From IMG/VR virus record IMGVR_UViG_3300002220_000285: a stretch of DNA of 64,000 nucleotides. One strand, written 5' to 3'. The DNA comes from a virus. Lineage: Duplodnaviria > Heunggongvirae > Uroviricota > Caudoviricetes. Shown here piece after piece: positions 5,917 through 19,161 of the stretch. The notes beneath the pieces were generated by a model. That model did not search any database. It was given only the letters and a program-made list of their open reading frames with translations, and was not told the DNA's origin. A program made the translations under genes and the position numbers. Within the stretch, counting starts at the first letter, position 1; every line of letters starts with the position of its first letter.

Positions 5917-5925
5917 CCGTTAGGG
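5911..5925. repeat. intergenic palindrome CCCTAACCGTTAGGG
   Basis: Exact copy. Confidence 0.6.
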
Positions 5926-5932
5926 AATCAAC

Positions 5933-6406
5933 ATGACCGAAGAAGAAATGCGGGACGCTGACGTCCCGACGCTCGAGACCCTCGAGGAACTGACCGCCTA
6001 CATCTCAGAGCTGGTGAATCAGCCGCAGGACTACGGCACGTGCGTCTACGCGATGAGCATGGCCGCAACCGCGACGTTCAACTACGTTGCCCGAAATCTC
6101 GGGGTTACAGGATTCCAGGCCTCGTGTGCCGACATGGACATCCTTCGGCGCACTCGTGACCTCGAGGGTCCGTTCATGCTCGTCAAGGGCGAGAACCTTC
6201 TGTACCCGCAGTACGACATTCAGTCGAATGTTCAGGAATGGATCGGGAGCTGCACACCCTGGGCGGCGCAGGAGGCGAAGAAACTCCTTGCCAGCGCCAA
6301 CCCGGAAAACGTCGCGTACAACGTCTGGCGCCATTGGGAGAGGCTGGCCTCTGCAGGGGAGGAGCTGGACGCGCCTGAAACCTATGATCAAGGGGGTGGG
6401 GCGTGA
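5933..6406 (+). CDS. hypothetical protein (157 aa, acidic)
   Basis: ATG 8 nt after palindrome. Confidence 0.55.
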   Translation: MTEEEMRDADVPTLETLEELTAYISELVNQPQDYGTCVYAMSMAATATFNYVARNLGVTGFQASCADMDILRRTRDLEGPFMLVKGENLLYPQYDIQSNVQEWIGSCTPWAAQEAKKLLASANPENVAYNVWRHWERLASAGEELDAPETYDQGGGA

Positions 6407-7395
6407 CTAGTGAAGAACTGCGCGGACTGGCTCAGTGTATTGAAGACGGAAGCATCGGAAAAGGTGGGCGCATTGCGATTGCCCACCGGCTCCGCATCTA
6501 CGCCGATGCGCTGGATGCGGGGCCGGTGGCGTGGATGTATCCAGACGACTACGAGCGCATGGTGTCTGGCGAAACATTTTGCACCGTCTTCTCGGTGAAA
6601 GTGGGTAGCCCGACGCAGGGGACAACGACGGTTCAACTCTACCCGCACTGCATCCCGCCTGCGCCGCAACCTGTAAGCCACGCTGATGAGTTGGGGCCTG
6701 TCGCCGTGCGCTACGGGTGGGACGGCCACGGCTATCAGTACGCCGACAACGGCACGGGTAGCGACTGGCTGACGCGCCACGGTGACGCGGAGGCGCTCTA
6801 TCTCCACCCTCCAACGCTCCGACTTCCGGAGCCGATGGGCTACGCAGCGGGCATCGAGGCTGTAGCAGCGATGATCGAAGCGAAGGCGCAGTCGTTCGCC
6901 GGTCAGCATGGCTCAGACGACATGGGGAGCTTGTCGTTCGGGAGTGGCGACCACGCAGAGGCGAAGTCCGATTACTACAACTCGCTCGTTGAACTGGCGG
7001 AGGAGGTGCGGGCCATGCTCGACGCAGCCCCGACGCCATTTGTCGCCGAGAAGGCTCCCTATTCCGCCATCGTGGGTGATGGTGGCATGGACCCACGCAA
7101 CGCGCTCGACGAGTATCGCCACGCATCCGACCATTGCCTCGGCGCAGCGGAACAGGGCAAGGCCGATCAGGAATTGCTTGAGAAACTTCGCCGTCCCGCG
7201 CTCCGACTGCCGGAGCCGATGACGGATGGCGAGATGCTCGACGTGCTGATCGAGGCATCAAATGAGATGGCAGTCAATGCTGGCCACGACCCTGAATCGT
7301 TGAAGCTCGATCATGGAGCCATCCGGGACGGGCTTGTAGTGGGGCGGGCCATCGAATCAGCAATCCTGCGCCGAGTGAAGGAGGCGAACAAATGA
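6403..7395 (+). CDS. hypothetical protein (330 aa) with internal duplication (P[TA]LRLPEPM...IEA)
   Basis: GTG start overlapping upstream TGA (GTGA); repeated 20-aa segment at two positions. Confidence 0.55.
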   Translation: MTSEELRGLAQCIEDGSIGKGGRIAIAHRLRIYADALDAGPVAWMYPDDYERMVSGETFCTVFSVKVGSPTQGTTTVQLYPHCIPPAPQPVSHADELGPVAVRYGWDGHGYQYADNGTGSDWLTRHGDAEALYLHPPTLRLPEPMGYAAGIEAVAAMIEAKAQSFAGQHGSDDMGSLSFGSGDHAEAKSDYYNSLVELAEEVRAMLDAAPTPFVAEKAPYSAIVGDGGMDPRNALDEYRHASDHCLGAAEQGKADQELLEKLRRPALRLPEPMTDGEMLDVLIEASNEMAVNAGHDPESLKLDHGAIRDGLVVGRAIESAILRRVKEANK

Positions 7396-7694
7396 TGCGT
7401 GAGCGCCCCAAATTCAGCGACGAGGATTACATCGCATTCGACCCCTGCGAAGGGGACCGCGACGTAGACATCAAGTGTCGCACGGTCAAGCTCGTCGTCG
7501 CTCGCAAAGAGCATCCATGCTTCCTCGGCGAAGGCAGCTACGGCGACGGGCACACGATCAAACCGGGCAATCGCTACCGCTACGAGCGCGCGCTCGTGGA
7601 CAGCGACTACTGGGGGCAGTACCGCGTCTGCTTGCCGTGCATGGACAATTTCCTGAGTGGCTTGCGAGGGGAAGACGAGGAGGCGAACAAATGA
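7392..7694 (+). CDS. hypothetical Cys-containing protein (100 aa)
   Basis: ATGA overlap; several Cys/His residues (possible metal site). Confidence 0.5.
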   Translation: MMRERPKFSDEDYIAFDPCEGDRDVDIKCRTVKLVVARKEHPCFLGEGSYGDGHTIKPGNRYRYERALVDSDYWGQYRVCLPCMDNFLSGLRGEDEEANK

Positions 7695-8212
7695 AAATCC
7701 TCGAAGGATGGAAACTGGTGCCGGTGGAGGCTACCGACGAGATGCTGCACGACGCATCGGAAGTTGATCTAGCGGAGGAAACGCCGGAAGCCTACCAAGA
7801 GTACCTGCGCGCAATCCACCGTCGCTTAGTCGCATCCGCACCGACCCCGCCAGTGCAGCACTCGGACGATGTTGCCGTGGACAGGTTCGCGGCGGCGATG
7901 AAAGCGAAGCTGGCCCAGAAACGGGCCGAGGGCCGCGGCGGATGGGACGACCCCGAACAGTGCCCGGTCGAGCGGCTGGCGGAACTGCTGCACGAGCACG
8001 TCAGCAAGGGCGACCCTATCGACGTGGCGAATTTCGCAATGATGCTGTGGTGCCGAGGGGGCAGGACGACCCCGCCAGTGCAGCAGGACGACGAGGCGCT
8101 GGAGGTGCTGCGGGAGCTGGTTGCAGCTTGGGATTCCAACGGCAAGCTCCGCGAATTTGTTGACTCAGTGGGACGCGCCCGCGCCCTCATCGCAAAGCGA
8201 GGTGAGAAATGA
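7691..8212 (+). CDS. hypothetical protein (173 aa)
   Basis: ATG of MKILEGW... overlapping upstream stop (AAATGA); same frame as track ORF 7475..8212. Confidence 0.55.
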   Translation: MKILEGWKLVPVEATDEMLHDASEVDLAEETPEAYQEYLRAIHRRLVASAPTPPVQHSDDVAVDRFAAAMKAKLAQKRAEGRGGWDDPEQCPVERLAELLHEHVSKGDPIDVANFAMMLWCRGGRTTPPVQQDDEALEVLRELVAAWDSNGKLREFVDSVGRARALIAKRGEK

Positions 8213-8742
8213 CCGATGACCCCATCAGCCGCATCGAGGCGGCGCTGGAAGCCAATCCGACTCCGGGGCCGTGGCACTACAAAGAATGGGGCTCAGAAAT
8301 CGTCGACAGTGGAGTCGGATCGAGCCAACTGCTCATCGCCAAGGTTGCTGTGAATACCTTCAGGGACCAAGGGCGGCACAACGCCGACTTCATCGCCGCC
8401 TGCAACCCGACCGCCATCCGCACCCTGCTCGACCGACTCAAGGCTGCGGAGGCGGAGAACGAGCGGCTGCGCGCCGAGCTTGCCGAGTCACGCACGCCGA
8501 CGATGTTTTGGGACGCGGACGCTGGCAGTGAAGGCTATCTTGGCTTCACTTTGCAGGAGGCCGTCGAGGATGCGTGCGACTCGATGGGTCGGATGGATGA
8601 CCCGTATGAACTCGAAGTCTCATGCGCTCGCGCACTGCCCGGCATCAAGGTCCGCGCGTGGATCGACGATAAGGACAATCTGCAGTGGGATGAGGTCGAA
8701 GACGCCGCCATGCGCAAGGAGGGCGACGATGCCGATCTTTGA
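8209..8742 (+). CDS. hypothetical protein (177 aa), Ead/Ea22-like N-terminus (PGPWHY)
   Basis: ATGA overlap; N-terminal motif recalled from phage Ead/Ea22-like proteins; coiled-coil middle. Confidence 0.5.
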   Translation: MTDDPISRIEAALEANPTPGPWHYKEWGSEIVDSGVGSSQLLIAKVAVNTFRDQGRHNADFIAACNPTAIRTLLDRLKAAEAENERLRAELAESRTPTMFWDADAGSEGYLGFTLQEAVEDACDSMGRMDDPYELEVSCARALPGIKVRAWIDDKDNLQWDEVEDAAMRKEGDDADL

Positions 8743-8983
8743 AATCCAAATCGAAACCGTCGCGGTCGTCATTGCTGAAGATGCTGCCCACGCCGTCGAG
8801 ATCGTCTCTGATGAAATGCTCCAGATCGTTTCGGATGCGATCGGCTCGTCCCTCGAGGTCCACTCGGGAACCGAAATCGAAAGCCTCGACGAGCTGCCGA
8901 GAGGCTGGGACCCCATGTGCATTCCTTACGGCGGGGACGGGGACACCCGCCTCAAGGACCTCTTACCCGAAACCCAACCCTAA
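8729..8983 (+). CDS. hypothetical acidic protein (84 aa)
   Basis: ATG after AAGGAGG; internal start of track ORF 8480..8983; TAA in palindrome. Confidence 0.5.
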   Translation: MPIFEIQIETVAVVIAEDAAHAVEIVSDEMLQIVSDAIGSSLEVHSGTEIESLDELPRGWDPMCIPYGGDGDTRLKDLLPETQP

Positions 8984-8992
8984 CCGTTAGGG
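8978..8992. repeat. intergenic palindrome CCCTAACCGTTAGGG
   Basis: Exact copy. Confidence 0.6.
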
Positions 8993-9001
8993 AGGACTCC
9001 A

Positions 9002-9418
9002 ATGCTGCTCATCATCCGCGGCCTACCCGGTTCGGGTAAGTCGACGCTGGCTCGCGCCCTGTGCGAGGCAACCCCAGGAGCCAGACGCTACGAGGCTGAC
9101 GACTTCTTCTATAAGGAAGGCGAGTACCACTACGTCTCCTCCTACATCAAGCAGGCGCACAAGACCTGCCTCTACAACGTCAGGTACTCGCTGGAAAACC
9201 GGGCGCCGCTCGTCATCGTCTCCAACACCTTCCGCGAGGCGTGGGAAATGCGCCCGTATGCGGCCCTGGCTCGAGAACTCGAGGTCGATCTGCAACTGAT
9301 CGAGGTTCAGGGGAACTGGCCTTCGATTCACGCGCCGGATGAGGTTCGGCAACGGATGGCAGCCACCTGGCAGAAGGTGACGCTGACCGCGGACAAGCAC
9401 ATTCAACCGAGGAAATGA
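9002..9418 (+). CDS. P-loop NTPase / AAA_33-like kinase (possible polynucleotide or nucleotide kinase)
   Basis: Walker A GLPGSGKST at N-terminus, small single-domain protein. Confidence 0.6.
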   Translation: MLLIIRGLPGSGKSTLARALCEATPGARRYEADDFFYKEGEYHYVSSYIKQAHKTCLYNVRYSLENRAPLVIVSNTFREAWEMRPYAALARELEVDLQLIEVQGNWPSIHAPDEVRQRMAATWQKVTLTADKHIQPRK

Positions 9419-9419
9419 C

Positions 9420-9728
9420 ATGAGCCTAGTTCATCGGCAGTTTCTGTCCTACCCACACCACGACTTGCCTGCGATCCCCGTGGGCTGGGTGGACGATTCA
9501 TGGCACAACGACCACTGCCCGAGCTGGATCGTCGGGGAGTACCGCGACGATCTGGTCAAGGTCTACATCGACTGGCCTGAAGTGGAGGCTCGCTTGTCAC
9601 CCAGCGCCATGCGTTATTCAGTCGTGCTCGACTACAACTCTGGTGACGGGGTCTGGGAGGAGTTTGAAACCTTCGCGGAGGTGCGTGACTACCTGAAACA
9701 GTTCGACATCACCCCGTATTACCCCTAA
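9420..9728 (+). CDS. hypothetical protein (102 aa)
   Basis: ATG 2 nt after upstream stop; TAA stop in palindrome variant. Confidence 0.55.
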   Translation: MSLVHRQFLSYPHHDLPAIPVGWVDDSWHNDHCPSWIVGEYRDDLVKVYIDWPEVEARLSPSAMRYSVVLDYNSGDGVWEEFETFAEVRDYLKQFDITPYYP

Positions 9729-9737
9729 CAGTTAGGG
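9723..9737. repeat. intergenic palindrome variant CCCTAACAGTTAGGG
   Basis: Centre base changed. Confidence 0.5.
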
Positions 9738-9750
9738 ACCACTTCTGGAG

Positions 9751-10041
9751 ATGCCCGTGTTTGAGAAGCTGATGATTGTGTCGAGCAGTCACGTGACCAG
9801 CAATACCGCGGAGTGGATGGACACCAAGATCGGCGGAATGACGCTGCCAGGTGCCCCGTTCAAAGAGGAAGGTTGGATCGTCGACCTCTCGGAGTTGGCA
9901 GACAAGTCTGACCTGCCGCACTGCCTTGCCCAGCTTGTCGATATCGCCCGAGCCGGGGATGCCAGCTTCCTGTTCCTGAGTGAGTCAGGGTCCAGGTTGC
10001 CTGAACTGCCCGTGTACACGTGGGGCAAGAACTTTCCCTAA
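9751..10041 (+). CDS. hypothetical protein (96 aa)
   Basis: ATG after CTTCTGGAGATG leader. Confidence 0.55.
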   Translation: MPVFEKLMIVSSSHVTSNTAEWMDTKIGGMTLPGAPFKEEGWIVDLSELADKSDLPHCLAQLVDIARAGDASFLFLSESGSRLPELPVYTWGKNFP

Positions 10042-10050
10042 TGGTTAGGG
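10036..10050. repeat. intergenic palindrome variant CCCTAATGGTTAGGG
   Basis: Still a perfect palindrome with altered centre. Confidence 0.5.
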
Positions 10051-10072
10051 ATTCAACTTTTGGAGAGTGTCG

Positions 10073-10477
10073 ATGCAAATCGTTTCATGTGGGGGGCGCG
10101 AGCCTGACCTGATTGGGTTGTCGCTAAAGGAAGCTCACCAGCTCCGAGTGCTGGCTCAAGAGTTGCGTTCCAATCCACCCCCGCAAGGGGAGCGGACCAG
10201 GGAGCTCGGAGAGTGGCTCCACCTGCTGCTCGACTGTGCTGCACCGCTGTGCCTTGCTTCGACGCTGCAGTCTTATGTCGTGCTGTACCGGATCGAGAAG
10301 GAGATGTCCCCGCTTGATCCTCCGCAAGGGTTCCTATGCCAGGCGGAGGACGACGAGCACGCCGAAGAGCAGTGCGAGAACGCCTACCCGAACGCCGGGG
10401 TTCTTTGGGTGTTCGAGGGGGATTCCTACGACGATGCGCTGGATGATTATTACAACGCGACTGGGGAGGCCCTATGA
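10073..10477 (+). CDS. hypothetical acidic protein (134 aa)
   Basis: ATG 7 nt after GGAGAG; track ORF 10067 uses GTG. Confidence 0.55.
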   Translation: MQIVSCGGREPDLIGLSLKEAHQLRVLAQELRSNPPPQGERTRELGEWLHLLLDCAAPLCLASTLQSYVVLYRIEKEMSPLDPPQGFLCQAEDDEHAEEQCENAYPNAGVLWVFEGDSYDDALDDYYNATGEAL

Positions 10478-10932
10478 AAGTCAAAGTCGCTGAGGCCGAG
10501 GGCATCGTCCTCGACTGGCTGGTGGCGAAGTGCGAAGGGTTGACCCCAACGCTACATAAGAACCCATATGGCTATTGGGTGATGCCAAATATCCCTGGTA
10601 GTTACTCGACCGACTGGTCCCTCGGTGGGCCGATCATCGAGAAAGCCAACATCACCATTATCCGCGCAAACGATGAGTATGAGGTGGACGCAAAGGGGCT
10701 CTCCACCAGCAAGCCTATCCCCTGCTGGTTCGCTGAGTGCAGCCGTTGGACCGGGCACTCCCTGACCACCAGCTACGAAGGTGAGAGCATGGAACCAACC
10801 TTCATGATCGGGGAGTTGGATGGCTGTTACGGAGCCACCCCGCTCATCGCAGCCATGCGCTGCCTTTGTTGTAGTAAACTCGGCGATGTTGTAGACATTC
10901 CGGAGGAACTATGCCAGCAGCAAAGAAGTTAG
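10474..10932 (+). CDS. hypothetical protein (152 aa)
   Basis: ATGA overlap. Confidence 0.55.
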   Translation: MKVKVAEAEGIVLDWLVAKCEGLTPTLHKNPYGYWVMPNIPGSYSTDWSLGGPIIEKANITIIRANDEYEVDAKGLSTSKPIPCWFAECSRWTGHSLTTSYEGESMEPTFMIGELDGCYGATPLIAAMRCLCCSKLGDVVDIPEELCQQQRS

Positions 10933-11597
10933 ACGGTCAGGTGTTTGGACGCTTAACGGTGTTAAACCGCAGTGGGAATCTTGGTGGACGGGTCTTATGG
11001 TCATGCCAGTGCGCGTGTGGAAGATTGCATGAAGCAGTCAGTCATGCGCTTACGTCAGGGCATACAAAGTCCTGCGGCTGCTGGAAAGACGAGCGCAACA
11101 CCTCGACACCCTCAATTCACGGACACGCATCACGAGCTAAAGGTATTAGCCCTACCTACCGGACCTGGCAATGCATGATTACTCGCTGCACTAATGTGTC
11201 TGTTAAGTCATACAAAGACTATGGGGCGCGAGGCATATCTGTATATGCAGGTTGGCTAGTGTTTGAGAACTTTCTTGCCGACATGGGTGAGAAACCATCA
11301 GGCATGTCAATTGAGCGTATGGATAACGAAAAGGGCTACGGGCCGGATAACTGCAAGTGGGCCACCAAGATAGAACAGGCGCGAAATACTCGCGCTAACA
11401 AGTTCATCAGCTACAAAGGAAAACGCATGACACAAGCTGAATTCGCAGAGGTTATTGGACATAACCAATCAACAGTAAGTTATCGACTACGTTCCGGATG
11501 GACTCCTGAGCAAGTTGCTAACACACCTGCAAACCCAGGCAACCGTGTGGCCGACAAGCTGGGTGACGAGGTAGACGTCCCTGAGGAGCTGCTATGA
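10911..11597 (+). CDS. HNH-family homing endonuclease-like protein, paralogue 1 (N-terminal CxCxCG zinc motif, C-terminal ...GYGPDNCKWATKIEQARN)
   Basis: Shares FGRLTV / CxCxCG / YxxYGGRGI / NC[KRQ]WAT motifs with ORFs at 35644, 39595, 41748. Confidence 0.65.
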   Translation: MPAAKKLDGQVFGRLTVLNRSGNLGGRVLWSCQCACGRLHEAVSHALTSGHTKSCGCWKDERNTSTPSIHGHASRAKGISPTYRTWQCMITRCTNVSVKSYKDYGARGISVYAGWLVFENFLADMGEKPSGMSIERMDNEKGYGPDNCKWATKIEQARNTRANKFISYKGKRMTQAEFAEVIGHNQSTVSYRLRSGWTPEQVANTPANPGNRVADKLGDEVDVPEELL

Positions 11598-11872
11598 GTC
11601 CCTATGGAACGCTCACCGTCACCTACACCGCTCAGGTTTTTGTTCCCGGTGAGGTGTACGACGCTTTCTACTTCACTCGAGAATTCGGGCGTTTCGCTCG
11701 GAATGTCGCAAAGGACGCCAACAAATTCGGAGAGCTTCTCGACGAGGAGCCTAACGGGGTTCCTTCAGTCCAGTGGGCTGACTTCTTCGTGCGCCGAGAT
11801 GCTGAGGACTTCATCAACAACTGGCACAACCGCATCCTGCAATGGCAGGAAGAGTTGCGCTCAAGGCCCTAA
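11594..11872 (+). CDS. hypothetical protein (92 aa)
   Basis: ATGA overlap with HNH gene stop. Confidence 0.55.
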   Translation: MSPYGTLTVTYTAQVFVPGEVYDAFYFTREFGRFARNVAKDANKFGELLDEEPNGVPSVQWADFFVRRDAEDFINNWHNRILQWQEELRSRP

Positions 11873-11881
11873 CCGTTAGGG
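11867..11881. repeat. intergenic palindrome CCCTAACCGTTAGGG
   Basis: Exact copy; TAA of upstream gene inside. Confidence 0.6.
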
Positions 11882-11901
11882 CTTCTACTTCTGAGGTAGC
11901 T

Positions 11902-12174
11902 ATGACGAACCTTGAACTTCTCGCCCGCGCTGTTGTCGATCGCTGGGATAACGGGGACCTTGCCGAAGCTGTCCGAGAGCTGGCTTACGAAATTGCGAGG
12001 CAGGACGAACTTCGCAGCTCGTTTCAGCAAGAGATCACCCGCCTTCGCAACGCGGGGGAGGTCGAGCTTGATGACGAGCCGCTGATCTCTGAGGCCAACG
12101 AAGGCATCTGGGTTGGCACCTGGACTTGGATCGACCTTGAGAATGAGGAGAACAGTGATGGCGATGCGTATTGA
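11902..12174 (+). CDS. hypothetical acidic protein (90 aa)
   Basis: ATG after TCTACTTCTGAGGTAGCT leader. Confidence 0.5.
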   Translation: MTNLELLARAVVDRWDNGDLAEAVRELAYEIARQDELRSSFQQEITRLRNAGEVELDDEPLISEANEGIWVGTWTWIDLENEENSDGDAY

Positions 12175-12547
12175 CATCTTCGGGAGCTACGACCGTGAGC
12201 TTACTGAGGCGGAGGCCGATGCTTTTCAGAACCACCTCAGAACCTACTACTGCTACAGCTCGCCAACCGACGAGGTGACAGAGCGCTCCTTTTCCCTGCT
12301 CTACTGCTCTAACGACGACCTGCTCGCCTTGCAGATTGGCATCAATGATTGGTTGCCGCCTGACGTCACTGCCACTCTCGAGATTCACTATACCGAGTGC
12401 GAGGAGCCTGGAATCGAATTCGAGTTCCACGGCCCCAAGGACCTGATTCTTGAGTACGACTTCCTACAGGAGAAGATCGCGGACCTTGAGGAACAAAAAA
12501 TGAGAGTGCTCAGGCTTATTGCAGAACGGACGATCCCGATCGGCTGA
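12158..12547 (+). CDS. hypothetical protein (129 aa)
   Basis: ATG 7 nt after GAGGAG, overlaps upstream gene by 17 nt. Confidence 0.5.
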   Translation: MAMRIDIFGSYDRELTEAEADAFQNHLRTYYCYSSPTDEVTERSFSLLYCSNDDLLALQIGINDWLPPDVTATLEIHYTECEEPGIEFEFHGPKDLILEYDFLQEKIADLEEQKMRVLRLIAERTIPIG

Positions 12548-12548
12548 C

Positions 12549-12563
12549 CCCTAATCGTTAGGG
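12549..12563. repeat. intergenic palindrome variant CCCTAATCGTTAGGG
   Basis: One-base variant. Confidence 0.5.
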
Positions 12564-12583
12564 ACCTACTTTTGGAGAGGAAC

Positions 12584-12994
12584 ATGAAACCTTCTGGACA
12601 TGAATTCTGGCTGTGCCAGGACTGCGTGCAGGTTGCCGTCAACGGGGATTACAGCGGGATCGACTACTACGCGAAGAACGAAGCCGAAGCGAGTGACATC
12701 GTTCACCGCATTGACAAGGGTCTCGCGGCACTTGGTCCCAACCTTGTCCCGGACTTCTGGGACTCTAGCGAACCCCGCTACAGGTGTGAGGACTGCGACC
12801 ATGAGTTCGACCTGGCTGACGCACAGAGAGTCGAGGATGAGGACGGGTACATCTGTATCGCCTGCCCGGAATGCAAGAGCTTGGACACCAACGAGCGCGA
12901 CTATGGAGAGGAGGAGTTCTCCTACAGGGAATGCGACTGCTGCGGGGAAGACCTTGCTGGTTACCGCTTTCGATTCACAACCCTGATCCCCTAA
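12584..12994 (+). CDS. Cys-rich zinc-ribbon protein (136 aa; 4+ CxxC pairs)
   Basis: CQDC, CEDCDHEF, CIACPEC, CDCCGED motifs; ATG after CCTACTTTTGGAGAGG leader. Confidence 0.55.
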   Translation: MKPSGHEFWLCQDCVQVAVNGDYSGIDYYAKNEAEASDIVHRIDKGLAALGPNLVPDFWDSSEPRYRCEDCDHEFDLADAQRVEDEDGYICIACPECKSLDTNERDYGEEEFSYRECDCCGEDLAGYRFRFTTLIP

Positions 12995-13003
12995 CCGTTA
13001 GGG
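12989..13003. repeat. intergenic palindrome CCCTAACCGTTAGGG
   Basis: Exact copy. Confidence 0.6.
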
Positions 13004-13022
13004 ACTACTTGAGGAGAGCAGT

Positions 13023-13574
13023 ATGGGATGGACCTGCACCTACAAACCGAGCGATCTGTCGATGCTCGAGTTCTTTCAACGCGAAGGCGCTCTGACCTGG
13101 AGCGCTGATTCCCCCAACAAGTACCGAGTGCTGGACAGTGGAACCGTGGCGAGGACCACGTTCTACGCCGCGGTCGAGCGCATCGATCCGGAGGGCAAGC
13201 GGGATGTGTTCGCCCTGATCTTCCTGCTGCGTTGGACGACCGGGCATCACAACCTTTGCTACAAGGATATGGACGAGACGATGGGACCGCTCGAGGCCCG
13301 CTGCCCGGAGCGCATCCTTGACCTGCTGACGCCCACTGACAACGAGTATGCGAATCAATGGCGTCACGACTGCCGCCATTACCACGCCAAGAGGAAGAAG
13401 ACGAAGACTTTGAAGGAAGGCCAGGTTCTTCAATACGGAGGCAAGTCGTACAAGCTGCTTCGCAGCCTGGGGCGCCGCGGGTGGGAGGTCCAGCTTGTCA
13501 CCTCGCCGTTCACTGCCTACCGGATGAAGACGTCTCAGCTTGTGCAGTGTGACCTTATCTCAACGGAGGTGTGA
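13023..13574 (+). CDS. hypothetical protein (183 aa)
   Basis: ATG after GAGGAGAG. Confidence 0.55.
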   Translation: MGWTCTYKPSDLSMLEFFQREGALTWSADSPNKYRVLDSGTVARTTFYAAVERIDPEGKRDVFALIFLLRWTTGHHNLCYKDMDETMGPLEARCPERILDLLTPTDNEYANQWRHDCRHYHAKRKKTKTLKEGQVLQYGGKSYKLLRSLGRRGWEVQLVTSPFTAYRMKTSQLVQCDLISTEV

Positions 13575-13575
13575 C

Positions 13576-13863
13576 ATGAAGAAGATGATCGCTGCACTAG
13601 CTGTATTCCTCGCCAGTAGTGCTTCCGCAACCGAGGTGGTTGCATACTGGTTCCTGCCCTCAGGGCATTCGATCTCTATCCATACGGGGCAGCTCCTCTG
13701 CAAGGATGGGAGGAATGACGCAATGGCTACCCACCCTAACGGCTCTGTTCTAACCGGGTGTTGGAGGATTGCAGTCAAGGATGGAAAGAAGCAATTGTTG
13801 ATTCAGTTACACGGAGACGAAGAGAGGGCGTATGACGCCCTGCGTTTCACGATTGTCGAATAA
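13576..13863 (+). CDS. small secreted protein with Sec signal peptide (MKKMIAALAVFLASSASA|TE)
   Basis: N-terminal signal peptide with AxA site; internal start of track ORF 13540..13863 after GGAGGTG. Confidence 0.55.
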   Translation: MKKMIAALAVFLASSASATEVVAYWFLPSGHSISIHTGQLLCKDGRNDAMATHPNGSVLTGCWRIAVKDGKKQLLIQLHGDEERAYDALRFTIVE

Positions 13864-13866
13864 CTG

Positions 13867-13881
13867 CCCTAATCGTTAGGG
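13867..13881. repeat. intergenic palindrome variant CCCTAATCGTTAGGG
   Basis: One-base variant, followed by ATCTACTTTTGGAGAGC leader. Confidence 0.5.
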
Positions 13882-13901
13882 ATCTACTTTTGGAGAGCAA
13901 C

Positions 13902-14138
13902 ATGGCAAAGACCTACAACGGCCACCCCAACTGGAATCACTGGAACGTGAGCCTGTGGATCAACAACGACGAGGGCTTGTACGGCCTCGCTCGTGACTGT
14001 GTTCGGCAGAGCCGACGTAATCGGACCGTGGCAGTCGAGATGATGCTCGACATGCTGCAAGAGATGGGCACGACACACACTCCGGATGGGGCGCCCTACA
14101 GCAAGACGACGATCCGTCACGCGATGAAGGAGATGTGA
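13902..14138 (+). CDS. hypothetical protein (78 aa)
   Basis: ATG 7 nt after GGAGAG. Confidence 0.5.
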   Translation: MAKTYNGHPNWNHWNVSLWINNDEGLYGLARDCVRQSRRNRTVAVEMMLDMLQEMGTTHTPDGAPYSKTTIRHAMKEM

Positions 14139-14139
14139 G

Positions 14140-14424
14140 ATGAGTGAAGTTGTAGGCCCGCTGAAGCTGTTGTCCATCGACGCCTGGCGAGATGGGGAAG
14201 GCGGATGGAACTGGAACAACTTCTTCCTGCTGGAGGAGGGCATCTTCCTGACTGACCCGACACCCCGCAAGGTCCTGAGGTTCCTGCGGAACGCAGGCTT
14301 CCTGACGGACTTCTCGAAAGGTCTGCTGCGTGTGGATTTCTACCCCTCTTACGACGGAACGCTGATCGAGATTCAGCACCGGCATACGTTCGAGCCGGTG
14401 CTGGCCCTGAGCGACATTCACTGA
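14140..14424 (+). CDS. hypothetical protein (94 aa)
   Basis: ATG 2 nt after upstream stop. Confidence 0.5.
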   Translation: MSEVVGPLKLLSIDAWRDGEGGWNWNNFFLLEEGIFLTDPTPRKVLRFLRNAGFLTDFSKGLLRVDFYPSYDGTLIEIQHRHTFEPVLALSDIH

Positions 14425-14448
14425 TCACTCTACTTCTGGAGAGAAAGC

Positions 14449-15096
14449 ATGGACGACATTATTCGTATTGACGAGAATTTCCCGGACTGCACGGCGATCG
14501 TTACCGATGTCTGGCTCGAGCGCGTGCTGGGCGAGCCGCTGGAGCTGAGCGACGAGAACGGGTTCGGGAACTTCGCACCGGGCCAGTGGCTCATGCAGTG
14601 CGTCAACACGATCAAGGGAATGATCGAGGATCACGAAGGGCGCGAATACCGAGTGACTGAGGTGCAGAACACGTACAACAGCGAGAACGACTTCTCGGAT
14701 GACTTCCAGTTCGCGGTGTTCTACCCGGCTGACGCGAGTGACTGGGTTTACGCAGACGATGTCTACGTGGCGGTCGAGCCTCACCTGGGCGGGGACCCCC
14801 GCGGCAACTACGGGAACATTCGGATTTACAAATCTGGGGACCTTGTAGACGGGGGGTTCTTCGATTGGTGCCTCGGGTGGTCGGTCAACTACATCGACGA
14901 CGGGGAATCTGTCCCCGAGGTCGAACGGTTCTCGATCGGCTACGCCAGCTACCCGTTCGCTGAACTTGAAAAGCACCTGATCCCGAGAGACGGTGAGAGC
15001 TGGCCCCGCCTCGAATGGGAGAAGGAGAACGAGCGCATCGTCGCTCTCTACATGGACGGACGAGAAGTCGCCGTGTATCCGTACATTAACGTCTGA
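14449..15096 (+). CDS. hypothetical acidic protein (215 aa)
   Basis: ATG after CTACTTCTGGAGAGAAAGC leader. Confidence 0.55.
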   Translation: MDDIIRIDENFPDCTAIVTDVWLERVLGEPLELSDENGFGNFAPGQWLMQCVNTIKGMIEDHEGREYRVTEVQNTYNSENDFSDDFQFAVFYPADASDWVYADDVYVAVEPHLGGDPRGNYGNIRIYKSGDLVDGGFFDWCLGWSVNYIDDGESVPEVERFSIGYASYPFAELEKHLIPRDGESWPRLEWEKENERIVALYMDGREVAVYPYINV

Positions 15097-15106
15097 GGAA
15101 TCAGTG

Positions 15107-15493
15107 ATGAAGATGACGCCTGAGCAACTGCAAAACGAACTCGCTTACTACACCGGCACCGAGGCCTATCACAAGTTCTCGATCACTCGAGATGTGTGTA
15201 CGGACGGGGTGCTTTTCCTCGCCAAGGAGGCTGGCGCCTTCTGGCTGCTCGAGCAGATCGTGCTCAAGCTGAGGGAGGAGAGCTACGTTGAGAAGGACTA
15301 CTTCGCAGTTGTGAATGTCAAGGTCGAGGATAACAAGGCTCGAATTCAGTTCGAGGACGGGGACGAACACGTTTTCGCAGTCGTCTACGTTGACTACACC
15401 GACTTCCCTCTGCCAGAATGCAAGCTCTTTGCAATCTGGCAGGAAGAGACGAAGCCTGGATCGTGGCTTCTGCTCCTGCCTAGCGAGTACTGA
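15107..15493 (+). CDS. hypothetical protein (128 aa)
   Basis: ATG after GAGGAA; internal start of track ORF 14993..15493. Confidence 0.5.
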   Translation: MKMTPEQLQNELAYYTGTEAYHKFSITRDVCTDGVLFLAKEAGAFWLLEQIVLKLREESYVEKDYFAVVNVKVEDNKARIQFEDGDEHVFAVVYVDYTDFPLPECKLFAIWQEETKPGSWLLLLPSEY

Positions 15494-16049
15494 CCAATGA
15501 GTATGAGCGCACCATAGTCAACGAGTGAATCATCAAGACCGTGAGAACCAGGCTTGCCGAATGAGGCATGAAGACTGTGAGCACCAAGCTTTCCGAACGA
15601 GTCACACCAATCGACAGCTCCAAAAGGAGAGAACGAGTCACAGAACCAGACAGAACCGTGAAGGAAGAACGAGCCGACTCGGCAGATAGCAACACACGCT
15701 GGATGCGAACCCTAGATTCTGAGAGAACCCATATCGGTGAGTGAGACAGCGATACTGATAGAACCCCGGCTGAAGATCGAATCGCCACGCTGAGCAGAAC
15801 CAAACAGCACGAATGAGCCAACTACCCGAGAGAACCAAACGCGAAGCGAACCCTAATGCTTAGGGAACCATCGTGAGTAGTGAGTCAACGTAGACGAGAG
15901 CACCTAGTACAAGGATCGAGACGAGCTGCAAGAAAGGACCACAAAGCCAGATCGAGACAGCGCTGTAGACAGAAACAAAAGACCTGATCGAACCTAATTA
16001 CCGATAGCACCAGACCGGGCGAGTGAATCACCTACTTTTGGAGTAACGA
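15494..16049 (+). other. 556-bp non-coding, purine-rich/T-poor, stop-codon-rich segment with AGAACC iteron-like repeats (candidate ncRNA, origin or partition site)
   Basis: No plus-strand ORF; frequent TGA/TAG in all frames; AGAACC or GAACC about 10 times; GTGAG motifs; contains palindrome variant at 15851. Confidence 0.45.
15851..15865. repeat. intergenic palindrome variant CCCTAATGCTTAGGG
   Basis: 6-bp arms with 3-nt centre inside the non-coding segment. Confidence 0.45.
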
Positions 16050-17060
16050 ATGAGCTTCCCTAGCAACCCCTTCAATACTGCCACCATCCCCTTCGACCTC
16101 GAGCCTGTCCAGCGGCTCACCAAGGACCTCAAAACTGCGGCGCGCACCCTGCACGACGACGAGGCTCGATTCCTGGTCGACTACTACTACATCGCACAAG
16201 AAGACCGGAAGCGTTCCGGCAATCAGGTCCTCGCCCTCGGCGACAACTCGGAACCCAACTCGGTTCTCAAGTGGTTGTTCGACCAGTCGGCGAGCCTTGA
16301 GGATCAAATCAAGAAGGCCTTGGATTCCTACACCCAGTCTCACCCAATGGGCGCCTGGATGCGCAGCATCTACGGCATCGGTCCGGTGATCTCAGCGGGC
16401 CTGCTGGCGAACATCGACATCGAGCAGGCGCCGACCGTGGGTCACATCTGGAGGTTCGCAGGTTTGGACCCCACCGTCATCTGGAAGAAGACAGAGGACG
16501 TTGAGAAGGACGTCGCCGCGGTCAAGGAGATGGACGAGGTTGCCATCATCCGCCTTGCCAAGGAGTACGGACGGAACCCGGAAAACCTGATCAAGCGGTC
16601 CCGCAACGATAAGGGAGAACTTGACCGCAAGGAGCTGAAGCGCGCCCTTGCCATGCGTCCGTGGAACGCCTCGCTCAAAACTTTGCTTTGGAAGGCTGGG
16701 CAAAGCTTTATGAAGTTCTCAGGCCGGGACGAGTGCGTCTACGGCAAGGTCTACCTGAAGCGCAAGGCCTATGAGATCGAGCGCAATGAGGCAGGTGGTA
16801 ATGCTGTGGCGGCTGCGGCCGGGGCCAAACGTGTCGGCAAGTCTACCGATGCCTACGGTCACTACAGCAACGGCAAGCTGCCGCCCGCGCAGATTGATGC
16901 TCGAGCGCGGCGCTATGCGGTCAAGTTGTTCGTCGCTCACCTGCATGACGCCTGGTATCGGATTCACTTCGAGAAGGAGCCGCCGCTGCCGTACCCGATC
17001 GCCATCCTGGGTCACGCCCACCTGATTACCCACGAAGACCTGAACAGGAAAGCTGCATAA
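16050..17060 (+). CDS. helix-hairpin-helix DNA-binding protein (336 aa); HhH segment resembles IS110-family transposase C-terminal region but lacks RuvC/DEDD and SG catalytic motifs
   Basis: SIYGIGPVISAGLLANI...RFAGLDP matches the GIGP..A..L.AEI...F...GL.P HhH pattern; ATG after CCTACTTTTGGAGTAACGA leader. Confidence 0.55.
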   Translation: MSFPSNPFNTATIPFDLEPVQRLTKDLKTAARTLHDDEARFLVDYYYIAQEDRKRSGNQVLALGDNSEPNSVLKWLFDQSASLEDQIKKALDSYTQSHPMGAWMRSIYGIGPVISAGLLANIDIEQAPTVGHIWRFAGLDPTVIWKKTEDVEKDVAAVKEMDEVAIIRLAKEYGRNPENLIKRSRNDKGELDRKELKRALAMRPWNASLKTLLWKAGQSFMKFSGRDECVYGKVYLKRKAYEIERNEAGGNAVAAAAGAKRVGKSTDAYGHYSNGKLPPAQIDARARRYAVKLFVAHLHDAWYRIHFEKEPPLPYPIAILGHAHLITHEDLNRKAA

Positions 17061-17069
17061 GGAGAGAAC

Positions 17070-17249
17070 ATGAAGATTCAAGTCGAGGTTGACTTTGACG
17101 CGATGTTGGACTCCGGGGAGATCACCCCGGACGTCCTGATTGATTCCCTGCTCGGAGACCTGCATTGGCTTAGCGAGAGCATCACGACAAGAGATGTCTT
17201 GCGCCTTGAAGAGGCTGTTGGATACCTTAAGAAGGAGAAGAACCTGTGA
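17070..17249 (+). CDS. hypothetical acidic small protein (59 aa)
   Basis: ATG after AAGGAGAGAAC; frame verified; below track cutoff. Confidence 0.5.
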   Translation: MKIQVEVDFDAMLDSGEITPDVLIDSLLGDLHWLSESITTRDVLRLEEAVGYLKKEKNL

Positions 17250-17548
17250 GCGAACTCGTCTACCTCGGCAAGATCGAGGGTGAAATTTCCGTGCAATTCC
17301 CCAGTGGGGCGCACATGATCGGAGTTAGGGAGGGCAGGAATGCCAGTGTGGTTGCCTACGCTCTGGACGAAGGGGGGGCGAATGTCCTCATGTATTCCGT
17401 TGACAAGGCTCGAGAGCTTCGGGAGGGGGTGGATGAGCTGGTCGGCGCCCTCGCCAAGCTGATCGAGTACATGGACGAAGACTCCCTGATCGAGGAGGAC
17501 TGGGAGGCACTGGAGAATGGGCGGGAGCTTCTGGCGAAGTTTCCCTAA
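17246..17548 (+). CDS. hypothetical protein (100 aa)
   Basis: GTG start overlapping upstream TGA (GTGA). Confidence 0.5.
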   Translation: MSELVYLGKIEGEISVQFPSGAHMIGVREGRNASVVAYALDEGGANVLMYSVDKARELREGVDELVGALAKLIEYMDEDSLIEEDWEALENGRELLAKFP

Positions 17549-17557
17549 CCGTTAGGG
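17543..17557. repeat. intergenic palindrome CCCTAACCGTTAGGG fused to GGGGCTTCGGCCCC UUCG-tetraloop hairpin (17555-17568)
   Basis: Exact copy; last copy in window; hairpin followed by TTTACTTCTGGAGATG leader. Confidence 0.6.
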
Positions 17558-18351: not shown

Positions 18352-18710
18352 ACGCAAGACCAGAAGACCTCGCCTACATGGACCTGATCGACCTGAAGGA
18401 ACTGGAACGCCAGGCCTACATCGACGGGCAGCGGCTGCTGGGTGCAGCGGTCAACCGAATCATCGACGAGATCGAGGCTGCCGAAGAGGACAGGGAGGCC
18501 CTGGATGCGGCGGTCGGCGCGGAGTCTGGACTGCAGGCCACTTACGACGACCTGTGCAGCATGGTCGAGACGGTCCTTGATTTGATCCGGGTCCGAGAGA
18601 CGGAGGAGGGGGAGTATGAGTACTACCTGTATGACGACGGATGGGTGTTGAAGAACCTGTTCGATGAGAGGGGCATGAATATGCCGAAACTGGAGGTGAC
18701 CAGTGAGTAA
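18336..18710 (+). CDS. hypothetical acidic protein (124 aa)
   Basis: ATG (or GTG at 18348 overlapping stop) in frame with track ORF 18069..18710. Confidence 0.5.
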   Translation: MEPPVNARPEDLAYMDLIDLKELERQAYIDGQRLLGAAVNRIIDEIEAAEEDREALDAAVGAESGLQATYDDLCSMVETVLDLIRVRETEEGEYEYYLYDDGWVLKNLFDERGMNMPKLEVTSE

Positions 18711-19161
18711 CTACGCAACTTTCCTTGTGCCGGGGTTGGACGGGGACGTCTCAATCGAGGTTTGCTTCGATGACTACTTCTCTGAAGACGAGGTGAGGGA
18801 GTCCCTCGGGGTTACCGAGAACTGGGAACCGATCGTGTCAGAGGTAGACGGCGCTGCGGCTGAGGCTGCCACAGACGGAGAGAAGTTCGACTTCGACAGG
18901 TACTTCGACCTTGAGAAGCTGGACGACGATGTGCTAGAGGCCTACCAGGCGTGCGTCGGCAGCCCTAGCTCCGCTGCGGAGGTGGAGGACGCCTACATCG
19001 GCCACTACGATTCTGACCGAGACTTCGCCTGGGAGCTGCTAGAGAGTCTGGGAGCTTTCGAGGCCTGGGAGGCGCTGCCCTACTACATCGACTACGACAA
19101 GTTGGTGCGTGACCTCGAGATCGACTACTCCCACCACAACGGCCACTGGTTCCGGCCGTAG
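18703..19161 (+). CDS. ardA: ArdA-like antirestriction protein (acidic DNA mimic)
   Basis: 152 aa, strongly acidic; C-terminal ...LPYYIDYDKLVRDLEIDYSHHNGHWF resembles the ArdA family signature as recalled; GTG start after GGAGGTGAC. Confidence 0.55.
   Translation: MSNYATFLVPGLDGDVSIEVCFDDYFSEDEVRESLGVTENWEPIVSEVDGAAAEAATDGEKFDFDRYFDLEKLDDDVLEAYQACVGSPSSAAEVEDAYIGHYDSDRDFAWELLESLGAFEAWEALPYYIDYDKLVRDLEIDYSHHNGHWFRP

What the first reader, a model, noticed from the sequence alone, without database searches (positions are those of the whole stretch)
15494..17060. 556-bp purine-rich, T-poor, stop-saturated non-coding segment with AGAACC iterons upstream of an HhH protein gene
In an otherwise gene-dense early region (gaps usually under 60 bp) this segment has no ORF on the transcribed strand. 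It has strong A+G skew, recurring AGAACC(A/G) and GTGAG motifs, and one palindrome variant. The next gene encodes a 336-aa protein whose GIGP helix-hairpin-helix segment resembles the C-terminal region of IS110-family recombinases, but it lacks their RuvC/DEDD and Ser catalytic motifs. Candidates are a structured phage ncRNA, an iteron-type origin or partition site bound by the HhH protein, or a guide-like RNA paired with a DNA-binding effector.
Basis: partly seen in the sequence, partly recalled or inferred. Interest (0 to 1): 0.65.

Follow-up and report, generated by a model that had tools for sequence, protein, structure and literature searches.

The report
Phage TIGR guide-RNA array with TasA
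The odd T-poor "non-coding" stretch is an array of fifteen 36-nucleotide guide RNAs (a TIGR array), and the gene after it encodes its nuclease-free RNA-guided DNA-binding partner TasA; this system was first described in 2025, so it is a clean rediscovery and not a new kind of element.

Summary
Window 15494-16049 is real and non-random. It parses into 15 units of edge repeat (GAAYGAGYCA), 8-nt spacer A, loop repeat (GAGAGAACCA) and 8-nt spacer B. This is the dual-repeat architecture of TIGR arrays (Faure et al. 2025).

The 336-aa protein matches TaTasR and SpTasH in sequence (profile E 1.6e-12 and 4.6e-7). The top 11 PDB fold matches of a pLDDT-90 model are all Tas chains. It has no nuclease domain, so it is a TasA. 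It keeps the tigRNA-processing dyad (Y315/H322, aligned to SpTasH Y289/H296).

Every related viral locus with enough flank (37 of 39) has a 36-nt array beside the gene. The edge halves that end up on one mature tigRNA pair in 28 of 30 cells (0 of 5000 shuffles reach this), so the degenerate-looking array is maintained.

The most likely function is RNA-guided DNA binding and repression of 16-bp targets. The targets are unknown and none lies in the window.

Verdict: new member of a known kind. The iteron, origin, structured-RNA and IS110 readings are rejected. Interest is low to moderate.

The parts
15492..16030 (+). Dual-repeat TIGR array. It holds 15 tigRNA units, 12 of them exactly 36 nt. It starts with a 5'-truncated edge that overlaps the upstream stop codon and ends with a full edge, GAGTGAATCA, at 16021-16030.
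   Evidence: 36-nt periodicity, z = 9.1. Unit-by-unit parse. The same architecture lies beside the homologous gene in 37 of 39 viral loci.
15780..15815 (+). tigRNA unit 9 (AATCG-CCACGCTG-AGCAGAACCA-AACAGCAC-GAATG). Both spacers are identical to unit 3 of the closest relative, L040. The predicted 16-bp target is CCACGCTGGTGCTGTT.
   Evidence: One search shows 16/16 spacer identity, while the tasA genes are only 74% identical in nucleotides. The target rule was derived from the TaTasR tigRNA1 and target oligonucleotides.
15528..15599 (+). Units 2 and 3, a diverged tandem duplication (spacer A TCAAGACC / TGAAGACT; spacer B GGCTTGCC / AGCTTTCC).
   Evidence: Tandem Repeats Finder reports period 36, 2 copies, 82% matches.
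15851..15865 (+). Hairpin CCCTAATGCTTAGGG inside the array, spanning the end of edge 10, spacer A of unit 11 and the start of loop 11. It is a variant of an intergenic hairpin repeated 18 times in this phage's early region. Units 10 and 11 are off-length here (33 and 34 nt).
16040..16043 (+). GGAG ribosome-binding site of tasA, within the phage's recurrent CTACTTTTGGAG start-associated motif. There is no terminator between the array and the gene.
16050..17060 (+). tasA: a 336-aa TIGR-associated protein made of a coiled coil plus a Nop domain, with no nuclease domain.
   Evidence: PDB sequence hits to TaTasR (9mty) and SpTasH. AF2 model with pLDDT 90.3. The top 11 Foldseek PDB hits are all TasH or TasR chains. 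hhalign to SpTasH gives probability 96.7%.
16155..16340 (+). Predicted long helical hairpin (aa 36-97), taken to be the coiled-coil dimerisation domain.
   Evidence: Secondary structure of the model. Assigned by analogy with TasR and TasH (PMC12045711, PMC13421893).
16362..16478 (+). GIGP helix-hairpin-helix segment (aa 105-143). This is the only part that Pfam recognises (Transposase_20).
   Evidence: It aligns to TaTasR, SpTasH and IS621.
16485..16652 (+). A helical insertion of about 55 aa in the Nop domain (aa 146-201). It is absent from SpTasH and from the 264-290-aa homologues.
   Evidence: Alignment A1, model helices, and a gap in the hhalign to SpTasH.
16992..17015 (+). Codons for Y315 through H322 (Y-PIAILG-H), the candidate pre-tigRNA processing dyad on a low-confidence, flexible C-terminal loop.
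   Evidence: hhalign places Y315 opposite SpTasH Y289 and H322 opposite H296. Those two residues are reported as catalytic in PMC13421893. H322 is invariant in 47 homologues. pLDDT falls below 50 at residues 321-323.

Best explanation
The segment is a dual-repeat TIGR (tandem interspaced guide RNA) array, and the downstream gene encodes its effector, a nuclease-free TasA.

Inferred mechanism, by homology to characterised TIGR-Tas systems:
1. The array is transcribed as part of the + strand early operon.
2. TasA dimers bind the precursor. The C-terminal Y315/H322 loop cuts each edge repeat between positions 5 and 6 (GAAYG|AGYCA).
3. This releases fifteen RNAs of about 36 nt: 5'-AGYCA, spacer A (8 nt), GAGAGAACCA, spacer B (8 nt), GAAYG-3'.
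4. The two ends of each RNA are closed by two base pairs.
5. Each RNP recognises a 16-bp DNA site that reads spacer A followed by the reverse complement of spacer B. Spacer A pairs with one strand and spacer B with the other, and no PAM is needed.
6. TasA has no nuclease, so binding blocks transcription or replication and does not cut.

What is shown here: the array architecture, the protein family, conservation of the dyad, the association across phages, and the end-closing covariation. What is inferred: expression, processing, DNA binding, and the biological targets. No target lies in this 64-kb window.
For: 1. Array. The period is 36 nt. There are 15 units, 12 of them exactly 36 nt, with alternating 10-nt repeats and 8-nt spacers. 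Invariant positions are G5, A6 and C9 in the edges and G5 and C9 in the loops.

2. Similarity to tested arrays. The repeats are close to those of two experimentally processed arrays. The SpTIGR edge is AAGCGAGCCA and its loop AAGACAACCA, with 8-nt spacers. The TaTasR edge is UGCG|AGCCA.

3. Protein. phmmer against the PDB gives TaTasR 1.4e-8. The profile search gives 1.6e-12 for TaTasR and 4.6e-7 for SpTasH. Foldseek ranks 1-11 are all TasH or TasR, probability 1.00. hhalign to SpTasH gives 96.7% and aligns Y315/H322 to Y289/H296. The N-terminus is too short to hold a nuclease domain, and Pfam finds no HNH or RuvC.

4. Association. 37 of 39 IMG/VR loci that encode a homologue, plus the closest relative L040, have a 36-nt periodic array directly upstream and/or downstream.

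5. RNA-level selection. Edge positions 3:8 and 4:7 covary across loci: GAGCGAGCCA, GAACGAGTCA, GATTGAAACA, GAATGAATCA. Within this window, pairing between edge(i) and edge(i-1), the two halves carried by one mature tigRNA, holds in 28 of 30 cells. Within one edge copy it holds in 20 of 30, with the reverse neighbour in 17 of 30, and 0 of 5000 order-shuffles reach 28.

6. Literature. The clade is in Table S1 of Faure et al.: the motif DYYYIAQEDRKR occurs 91 times. TasA has been shown to act as an RNA-guided repressor (bioRxiv 10.64898/2026.09.09.750476).
Against: - The array is more degenerate than those of most relatives. Mean identity to consensus is 0.71 for edges and 0.81 for loops, against about 0.9 elsewhere.
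- The canonical CCA box C is present in only 9 of 15 loops.
- Loop position 3 pairs with position 8 in only about half of the units.
- Three units are 33-35 nt, and a phage hairpin element sits inside the array.
- Box D reads A-N here, not the UG of TasR arrays.
- No terminator follows the array.
- No natural target was found in the window, in the flanks of relatives, or convincingly elsewhere.
- Expression and processing are untested.
Confidence: 0.93

Rival explanations
1. The array is a decaying relic. It is a former TIGR array that is no longer processed or used, beside a TasA that works with other guides or is itself losing function.
For: It has the lowest repeat conservation among the loci parsed. 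Three units are off-length and a hairpin element is inserted. Box C is non-canonical in 6 of 15 loops.
Against: Closing pairs between neighbouring edges hold in 28 of 30 cells, and 0 of 5000 shuffles reach this. Decay would erase such a pattern. G5, A6 and C9 are invariant. Twelve of 15 units are exactly 36 nt. The protein is intact, with the invariant H322 and a pLDDT-90 model. The array is identical in four independent samples, although those contigs are nearly identical overall. One unit is conserved 16/16 with a relative whose tasA is 74% identical.
Confidence: 0.04
2. The repeats are an iteron-type replication origin or a partition (centromere-like) site. On this reading they are double-stranded DNA binding sites for the HhH protein or another phage protein.
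For: There are many direct repeats next to a gene for a DNA-binding-type fold, in the early/replication part of the genome. Faure et al. note ParB-like genes beside some tasA loci.
Against: All repeats are on one strand, and two kinds alternate strictly at 18-nt spacing. Variation is compensatory for RNA pairing between adjacent copies. There is no AT-rich unwinding region and no Rep or ParB gene nearby. The protein's closest solved relatives are guide-RNA-binding Tas proteins.
Confidence: 0.015
3. The region is a long 5' UTR, a structured regulatory ncRNA, or a protein sponge for tasA or another factor.
For: It lies directly upstream of tasA with no terminator between them, and it is probably co-transcribed.
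Against: The minimum free energy equals that of shuffles (z = -0.06). There is no Rfam family match. In most relatives the array lies downstream of the gene, so it is not a leader.
Confidence: 0.01
4. It is an IS110-type element: a bridge RNA plus a recombinase.
For: Pfam Transposase_20 hit. Weak sequence and fold similarity to IS621.
Against: There is no DEDD/RuvC domain and no Ser at the catalytic position (GLDPTVIW in place of GL-P----SG). The upstream RNA is a 15-unit array, not a single two-loop bridge RNA. IS621 ranks far below the Tas chains (E about 1 against 1e-6).
Confidence: 0.005

Closest known systems
Dual-repeat TIGR-TasA systems (for example FpTasA of Flavonifractor plautii; Faure et al., Science 2025, PMC12045711)
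   Same: A solo coiled-coil plus Nop protein. An adjacent array of alternating edge and loop repeats with two short spacers per 36-nt unit. Phage-borne. This protein clade is listed in their Table S1.
   Different: Spacers are 8+8 nt, against 9+9 for FpTIGR. Box D reads A-N in place of UG. Edge repeats are heterogeneous within one array. The Nop domain carries a 55-aa insertion. The array abuts the tasA start with no terminator.
SpTIGR-TasH of Salicola phage CGphi29 (PDB 9W03, 9W04, 21KL; PMC13421893)
   Same: The repeat design is nearly the same (edge AAGCGAGCCA, loop AAGACAACCA, 8-nt spacers). The Nop domain is homologous (hhalign 96.7%). The Y-x6-H processing dyad is conserved. It gives the best structural matches.
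   Different: SpTasH has an N-terminal HNH nuclease and cuts DNA. The window protein has no nuclease domain and carries an extra helical insertion. Overall identity is about 20%.
TaTasR (PDB 9MTY)
   Same: It is the best sequence hit in the PDB (E 1.6e-12 with the profile). Its edge core GCGAGCCA is the same as in relatives L031-L033. The two end-closing pairs are seen in its structure.
   Different: It has a RuvC nuclease domain and 9-nt spacers. It has W in place of Y at the dyad position.
MbTasA and catalytically dead TasR as RNA-guided transcriptional repressors (bioRxiv 10.64898/2026.09.09.750476)
   Same: A nuclease-free Tas protein, with the expected outcome of binding being steric repression.
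   Different: The sections read do not say which guide architecture MbTasA uses, and the dead TasR proteins use stem-loop guides. Repression has not been shown for this dual-repeat phage clade.
IS110/IS621 bridge-RNA recombinases and box C/D snoRNPs
   Same: [quoted passage not shown]
   Different: There is no DEDD domain, catalytic Ser or single bridge RNA. There is no fibrillarin or L7Ae partner and no RNA target.
CRISPR arrays, especially nuclease-free type IV and type V-M interference
   Same: An array of guides processed from one precursor. The likely outcome is binding without cleavage.
   Different: Two alternating 10-nt repeats, two 8-nt spacers per guide that pair with opposite DNA strands, no PAM, no cas genes, and no known adaptation module.

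Membership tests
TIGR-Tas (dual-repeat type) | An array of two distinct alternating 8-12-nt repeats (edge and loop) separated by spacers of about 8-9 nt, giving a unit of about 36 nt repeated 5-15 or more times. | tested here: met
   There are 15 units, 12 of them exactly 36 nt, with 10-nt repeats and 8-nt spacers. Lag-36 autocorrelation has z = 9.1.
TIGR-Tas (dual-repeat type) | An adjacent gene encoding a Tas protein with a Nop RNA-binding domain and a coiled coil. | tested here: met
   PDB sequence hits to TaTasR and SpTasH. Foldseek ranks 1-11 are all Tas chains, probability 1.00. hhalign gives 96.7%. The model shows a long helical hairpin at aa 36-97.
TIGR-Tas (dual-repeat type) | Box C (CCA) at the 3' end and box D (UG) at the 5' end of both repeats, with the motifs covarying between edge and loop. 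| tested here: inconclusive
   C9 is invariant. A10 is present in 11 of 15 loops and 9 of 15 edges. Full CCA is present in 9 of 15 loops. The box D position reads A-N, not UG. Faure et al. state that these motifs can diverge between loci.
TIGR-Tas (dual-repeat type) | The edge repeat carries an extra base pair beyond the box C/D pair, supported by covariation. The pairs form between the two edge halves of one processed tigRNA. The loop repeat lacks this extra pair. | tested here: met
   Edge 4:7 is always Y:R, while loop 4:7 is A.A. Pairing across neighbouring edges holds in 28 of 30 cells, and 0 of 5000 shuffles reach this. Compensatory edge types are seen across loci.
TIGR-Tas (dual-repeat type) | A conserved Tyr/His dyad on a C-terminal loop of the Nop domain, used for pre-tigRNA processing. 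| tested here: met
   Y315 and H322 align to SpTasH Y289 and H296 (PMC13421893). H322 is invariant. The Tyr is replaced by Phe in some homologues.
TIGR-Tas (dual-repeat type) | The array is transcribed and processed into 36-nt tigRNAs that bind the Tas protein and guide it to DNA. | not testable with these tools
   This needs small-RNA sequencing, pull-down and EMSA.
TIGR-Tas (dual-repeat type) | The array begins with a 5'-truncated edge and ends with a 3'-truncated edge followed by a rho-independent terminator (described as typical, not as obligatory). | tested here: not met
   The first edge is 5'-truncated (only GACCA fits, and it overlaps the stop codon). The last edge is complete and is followed by the tasA ribosome-binding site with no terminator. 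Relative L040 has a hairpin after its array.
TasA subtype (solo Nop) | No HNH or RuvC nuclease domain N-terminal of the coiled coil. | tested here: met
   Only about 35 residues precede the coiled coil, and residues 1-17 are disordered. Pfam finds no nuclease domain.
IS110-family recombinase with bridge RNA | An N-terminal DEDD (RuvC-like) domain and a catalytic Ser in the C-terminal Tnp domain. | tested here: not met
   There is no DEDD_Tnp_IS110 hit. The N-terminus is too short. The Ser position is occupied by the W/K-rich GLDPTVIWKK segment.
Iteron origin or partition site | Identical double-stranded protein-binding repeats next to a rep or par gene, usually with an AT-rich region. | tested here: not met
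   Two alternating repeat kinds, strand-specific, with RNA-type compensatory variation. GC stays near 50% with no AT-rich stretch. No Rep or ParB domain is found in the neighbouring genes.
CRISPR-Cas | One repeat of 25-36 nt alternating with spacers of about 30 nt, plus cas genes. | tested here: not met
   The repeats are 10 nt, of two kinds, and the spacers are 8 nt. No Cas domains are found nearby.

The most novel reading that the evidence does not exclude
The phage expresses TasA early in order to silence specific host genes, and the one tigRNA conserved between this phage and its relative L040 (unit 9) has a natural target inside a conserved MFS_2 transporter gene of freshwater Burkholderiales. 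Its predicted 16-bp site, CCACGCTGGTGCTGTT, occurs exactly in that gene in at least 18 species. If true, this would be the first natural target assigned to a TIGR-TasA system and would also point to the host. A second, smaller point: unit-specific closing pairs in heterogeneous edges suggest that each tigRNA carries its own 'zip code', which may enforce the correct processing register.
Probability: 0.08. Interest if true: 0.7.

Novelty: new member of a known kind. Interest (0 to 1): 0.3.

Why it matters
This is an independent rediscovery, from raw sequence, of a TIGR-TasA system in a siphovirus-like phage. The family was described in 2025 and this protein clade is already catalogued, so the locus adds little that is new in kind.

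It does offer useful material on questions the field still lists as open:
- A complete 64-kb phage context, with the system in the early host-takeover region near an ArdA-like gene.
- An array whose heterogeneous edge repeats give natural, unit-by-unit covariation evidence for the end-closing pairs seen in cryo-EM structures.
- Evidence that most spacers turn over quickly while a few are conserved across deeply diverged phages. This implies stable targets and gives a short list of 16-bp sites to test.

Tried and rejected
- Rfam scan of 14.5-17.5 kb at E <= 10: only chance hits.
- blastn of the region against GenBank phages: no match. tblastn: only a weak Microcystis phage hit.
- Fold of the 556 nt as RNA: no excess stability.
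- Promoter and terminator scan: nothing convincing around the array.
- Self-target search under the true rule (spacer A + reverse complement of spacer B, gaps of 0-2) and under three wrong-rule controls. The window has no hit with <= 1 mismatch for full 16-mers. The flanks of 25 loci give 0 hits with <= 1 mismatch and 7 hits with 2 mismatches, against 5-6 in the controls.
- 564 distinct targets searched against 320 kb of phage loci: 0 perfect matches.
- The conserved unit-9 target in IMG/VR: 42 scattered hits. I did not compute an expectation; by rough estimate this is near chance.
- The same target in GTDB genomes: 120 or more hits. One cluster of 18 species lies in a Burkholderiales MFS_2 gene. 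The 16-mer also encodes a common TLVLF membrane-helix motif in high-GC codon usage. No other tigRNA hits those loci. I keep this only as a weak lead.
- The other strong 36-nt periodic region of the window (3384-4118) is a coding hexapeptide repeat, not a second array.
- Test for array growth by tandem duplication: only a weak excess of similar adjacent units (about 1.6% against 0.5%).
- The exact protein was not found in the stored part of Faure Table S1. That file is truncated, so this says nothing either way.
Full report
**Observation.**
The gap between a DUF6876 gene (15107-15493) and a 336-aa gene (16050-17060) is 556 nt long. Its composition is A 35%, C 25%, G 26% and T 13.5%. That is the lowest T content of any 556-nt window in the 64 kb. 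Purines make up 61%. The three + frames carry 12, 13 and 7 stops, and nothing longer than 60 codons is open. AGAACC occurs seven times where about 0.3 would be expected. The description is therefore correct.

Autocorrelation at lag 36 is 0.446, against 0.273 +/- 0.019 in shuffles (z = 9.1), with a sub-period of 18.

**Anatomy.**
In register, the region resolves into 15 units. Each has an 8-nt variable segment, a loop-type repeat (consensus GAGAGAACCA), a second 8-nt variable segment, and an edge-type repeat (consensus GAAYGAGYCA). Twelve units are exactly 36 nt. Units 10, 11 and 15 are 33-35 nt.
- Invariant positions are G5, A6 and C9 in the edges and G5 and C9 in the loops.
- The repeats are almost T-free (9% T). 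The spacers have 18% T, close to the window mean. This explains the composition.
- The stops come from the TGA and TAG triplets inside GTGAG, AATGAG and GATAGAACC.

**Relatives.**
The protein has 4567 homologues in the metagenomic protein collection and 39 IMG/VR loci. Cleaner versions of the same array sit directly upstream of the gene in L028-L033. An example is L033: GAGCGAGCCA-N8-GAGAGCACCA-N8, 15 units. In L001-L027 the array lies directly downstream, with up to about 63 units in L034. Only the two loci truncated at the gene lack one. The closest relative, L040 (80% aa identity), has the same DUF6876-array-gene order with six units.

**Identification.**
Pfam recognises only a Transposase_20 segment at aa 105-143. 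The PDB sequence search returns TaTasR (9mty, E 1.4e-8; 1.6e-12 with a family profile) and SpTasH (4.6e-7). IS621 is much weaker. An AlphaFold2 model built from 47 homologues has pLDDT 90.3. Its eleven best Foldseek matches in the PDB are all TasH or TasR chains, probability 1.00. IS621 follows at E of about 1.

The literature tools returned Faure et al. 2025 (PMC12045711). That paper defines TIGR arrays as two alternating 8-12-nt repeats (edge and loop) interspaced by spacers of about 9 nt. [quoted passage not shown] The systems are mostly found in phages. The window protein has only about 35 residues before its coiled coil and no nuclease domain, so it is a TasA. The motif DYYYIAQEDRKR of this clade occurs 91 times in the stored part of their Table S1. 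The clade is therefore already catalogued.

**Comparison with tested systems.**
I fetched the Salicola phage CGphi29 locus. Its array reads AAGCGAGCCA-N8-AAGACAACCA-N8, which is essentially the design seen here. hhalign of the family profile against SpTasH gives probability 96.7%. It aligns PLPYPIAILGH with RPLYVQEKLGH, placing Y315 opposite Y289 and H322 opposite H296. Those two SpTasH residues are reported to catalyse metal-independent pre-tigRNA cleavage (PMC13421893; bioRxiv 2026.09.09.750476). H322 is invariant in 47 homologues. The loop has low model confidence, which fits a flexible loop.

The synthetic TaTasR tigRNA1 (AGCCA-UGCAAGCCC-UGAAACCCA-UUGCCUUAG-UGCG) and its target oligonucleotide (TGCAAGCCC-ctaaggcaa) come from the supplement. 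They fix two rules. The edge is cut as UGCG|AGCCA, which corresponds to positions 5|6 here. The target reads spacer A followed by the reverse complement of spacer B.

**Evidence that the array is maintained at the RNA level.**
- Across loci the edge consensus changes by compensatory pairs at positions 3:8 and 4:7: GAGCGAGCCA, GAACGAGTCA, GATTGAAACA, GAATGAATCA. In loops, position 4:7 is A.A and never pairs. This matches the published structural description.
- In this window the edges look degenerate, with 14 distinct sequences among 16. Even so, positions 3 and 4 of edge(i) pair with positions 8 and 7 of edge(i-1) in 28 of 30 cells. These are the two halves that end up on one mature tigRNA.
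- The comparison values are 20 of 30 within one edge copy, 17 of 30 with the opposite neighbour, and a mean of 18.1 in 5000 order-shuffles, none of which reaches 28.
- The same holds in other loci: L005 30/30, L011 58/58, L016 82/82, L023 86/86.
- This argues against decay and against a DNA-binding-site reading.
- The RNA has no global structure (z = -0.06). That is as expected for a pre-tigRNA and contrary to the structured-ncRNA idea.

**Mechanism (inferred).**
The array fills the whole gap of a + strand early operon. No convincing promoter or terminator flanks it. TasA dimers would bind the precursor and cut each edge. This would release 36-nt guides and, at the last edge, leave tasA with a 24-nt leader that contains the GGAG site. 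Each RNP would bind a 16-bp site with no PAM. Lacking a nuclease, it would block transcription or replication, as shown for MbTasA and dead TasR.

**Targets.**
I found no targets.
- None lies in the window or in the flanks of relatives under the true rule, compared with three wrong-rule controls.
- None of 564 distinct guides has a perfect site in 320 kb of related phage DNA.

**Spacer evolution.**
Loci whose tasA genes are 96% identical in nucleotides share only a third to three quarters of their units. A few 16-nt spacer pairs, however, are identical between loci at 64-74% gene identity. One of these is window unit 9, which equals L040 unit 3.

The predicted site of unit 9, CCACGCTGGTGCTGTT, has 42 scattered hits in IMG/VR. 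I did not compute an expectation for that count; by rough estimate it is near chance. In GTDB genomes, the 120 rows returned include a cluster of 18 homologous hits inside an MFS_2 transporter gene of Burkholerial genera: Limnohabitans, Polaromonas, Hydrogenophaga, Rubrivivax and others. The 16-mer encodes a common TLVLF helix in high-GC codon usage. No other guide hits those loci. This remains a lead, not a finding.

**Deviations from the typical description.**
- The spacers are 8 nt, as in SpTIGR.
- Box D is A-N, not UG.
- Only 9 of 15 loops end in CCA.
- No terminator follows the array.
- The Nop domain carries a 55-aa helical insertion (aa 146-201) that is absent from SpTasH and from the 264-290-aa homologues.
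- A copy of a phage-specific hairpin lies inside the array.

**Verdict.**
This is a TIGR array plus TasA: a new member of a known kind, and not a new kind. The iteron, origin and structured-RNA options are rejected, and so is an IS110 element.

Noticed in passing
window 528-17556 (19 sites, e.g. 528, 1594, 2131, 2598, 3360, 4208, 5467, 8979, 12990, 17544); also L040 2172, 3251, 3844, 6533: A 15-nt hairpin, CCCTAACCGTTAGGG (6-bp stem, 3-nt loop), sits in most intergenic gaps of the early region, between a stop codon and the next ribosome-binding site. It matches 19 times where 0.5 would be expected by chance. It is often followed by a conserved CTACTTTTGGAG start-associated motif (10 matches against 0.13 expected). 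It occurs in the close relative L040 but in no other TIGR phage locus. Its function is unknown; it could be a processing site, an attenuator, an operator or a hairpin promoter. One variant copy lies inside the TIGR array.
   Followed up: partly
window 15487-16030, and arrays in L005, L011, L016, L021, L023, L024: The edge repeats within one array are heterogeneous. The 5' half of each edge pairs with the 3' half of the preceding edge: 28/30 in the window and 30/30 to 86/86 in other loci. This far exceeds pairing within one edge copy or after shuffling the order. Each tigRNA therefore carries its own closing pairs.
   Followed up: yes
arrays of L001-L038, L040 and the window (pairwise comparison): Spacer content turns over faster than the tasA gene, with only a third to three quarters of units shared at 96% nucleotide identity. 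A few identical 16-nt spacer pairs nevertheless persist between loci at 64-74% gene identity, which implies conserved targets for a minority of guides.
   Followed up: partly
L088, L089, L107, L117, L120, L121, L123, L138 and 10 other genome loci (e.g. L089 2868-2883): The predicted target of the conserved unit 9, CCACGCTGGTGCTGTT, occurs exactly within a conserved MFS_2 transporter gene in at least 18 Burkholderiales species. Its significance could not be assessed. It is a possible hint to the host or the target.
   Followed up: partly
window 15528-15599: Units 2 and 3 are a diverged tandem duplication (82% identical). Across all loci, adjacent units are only weakly more alike than distant ones (about 1.6% against 0.5% of pairs reach >= 10/16). 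Unit duplication happens but is not the main source of spacers.
   Followed up: partly
window 16485-16652 (aa 146-201 of TasA): A four-helix insertion of about 55 aa in the Nop domain is shared by the closest homologues (312-342 aa). It is absent from the 264-290-aa majority and from SpTasH. A recent preprint describes dual-repeat Tas proteins as having a conserved, uninserted Nop domain.
   Followed up: partly
window 3383-4219: A 278-aa protein made of about 25 hexapeptide (18-nt) repeats of the GNARVY type. Pfam assigns it to the YdcK beta-solenoid repeat and weakly to bactofilin. It gives the strongest 36-nt periodicity in the window but is coding and is not a second TIGR array.
   Followed up: yes
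window 18703-19161 and the genome at large: An ArdA-like anti-restriction gene lies 1.6 kb downstream of tasA in the same early operon. The phage encodes PolA, primase, ligase, helicase, an SbcC-like protein, a tape-measure protein and a J-like tail fibre, so it is siphovirus-like. The identical locus occurs on at least 23 contigs from several samples.
   Followed up: partly
window 15480-15821, minus strand: A 113-aa ORF lies antisense to the array. It is most likely an artefact, because the A-poor minus strand has few stop codons. Gene callers may annotate it; one of the four contigs that carry this locus (L206) has a short minus-strand gene call inside the array.
   Followed up: no
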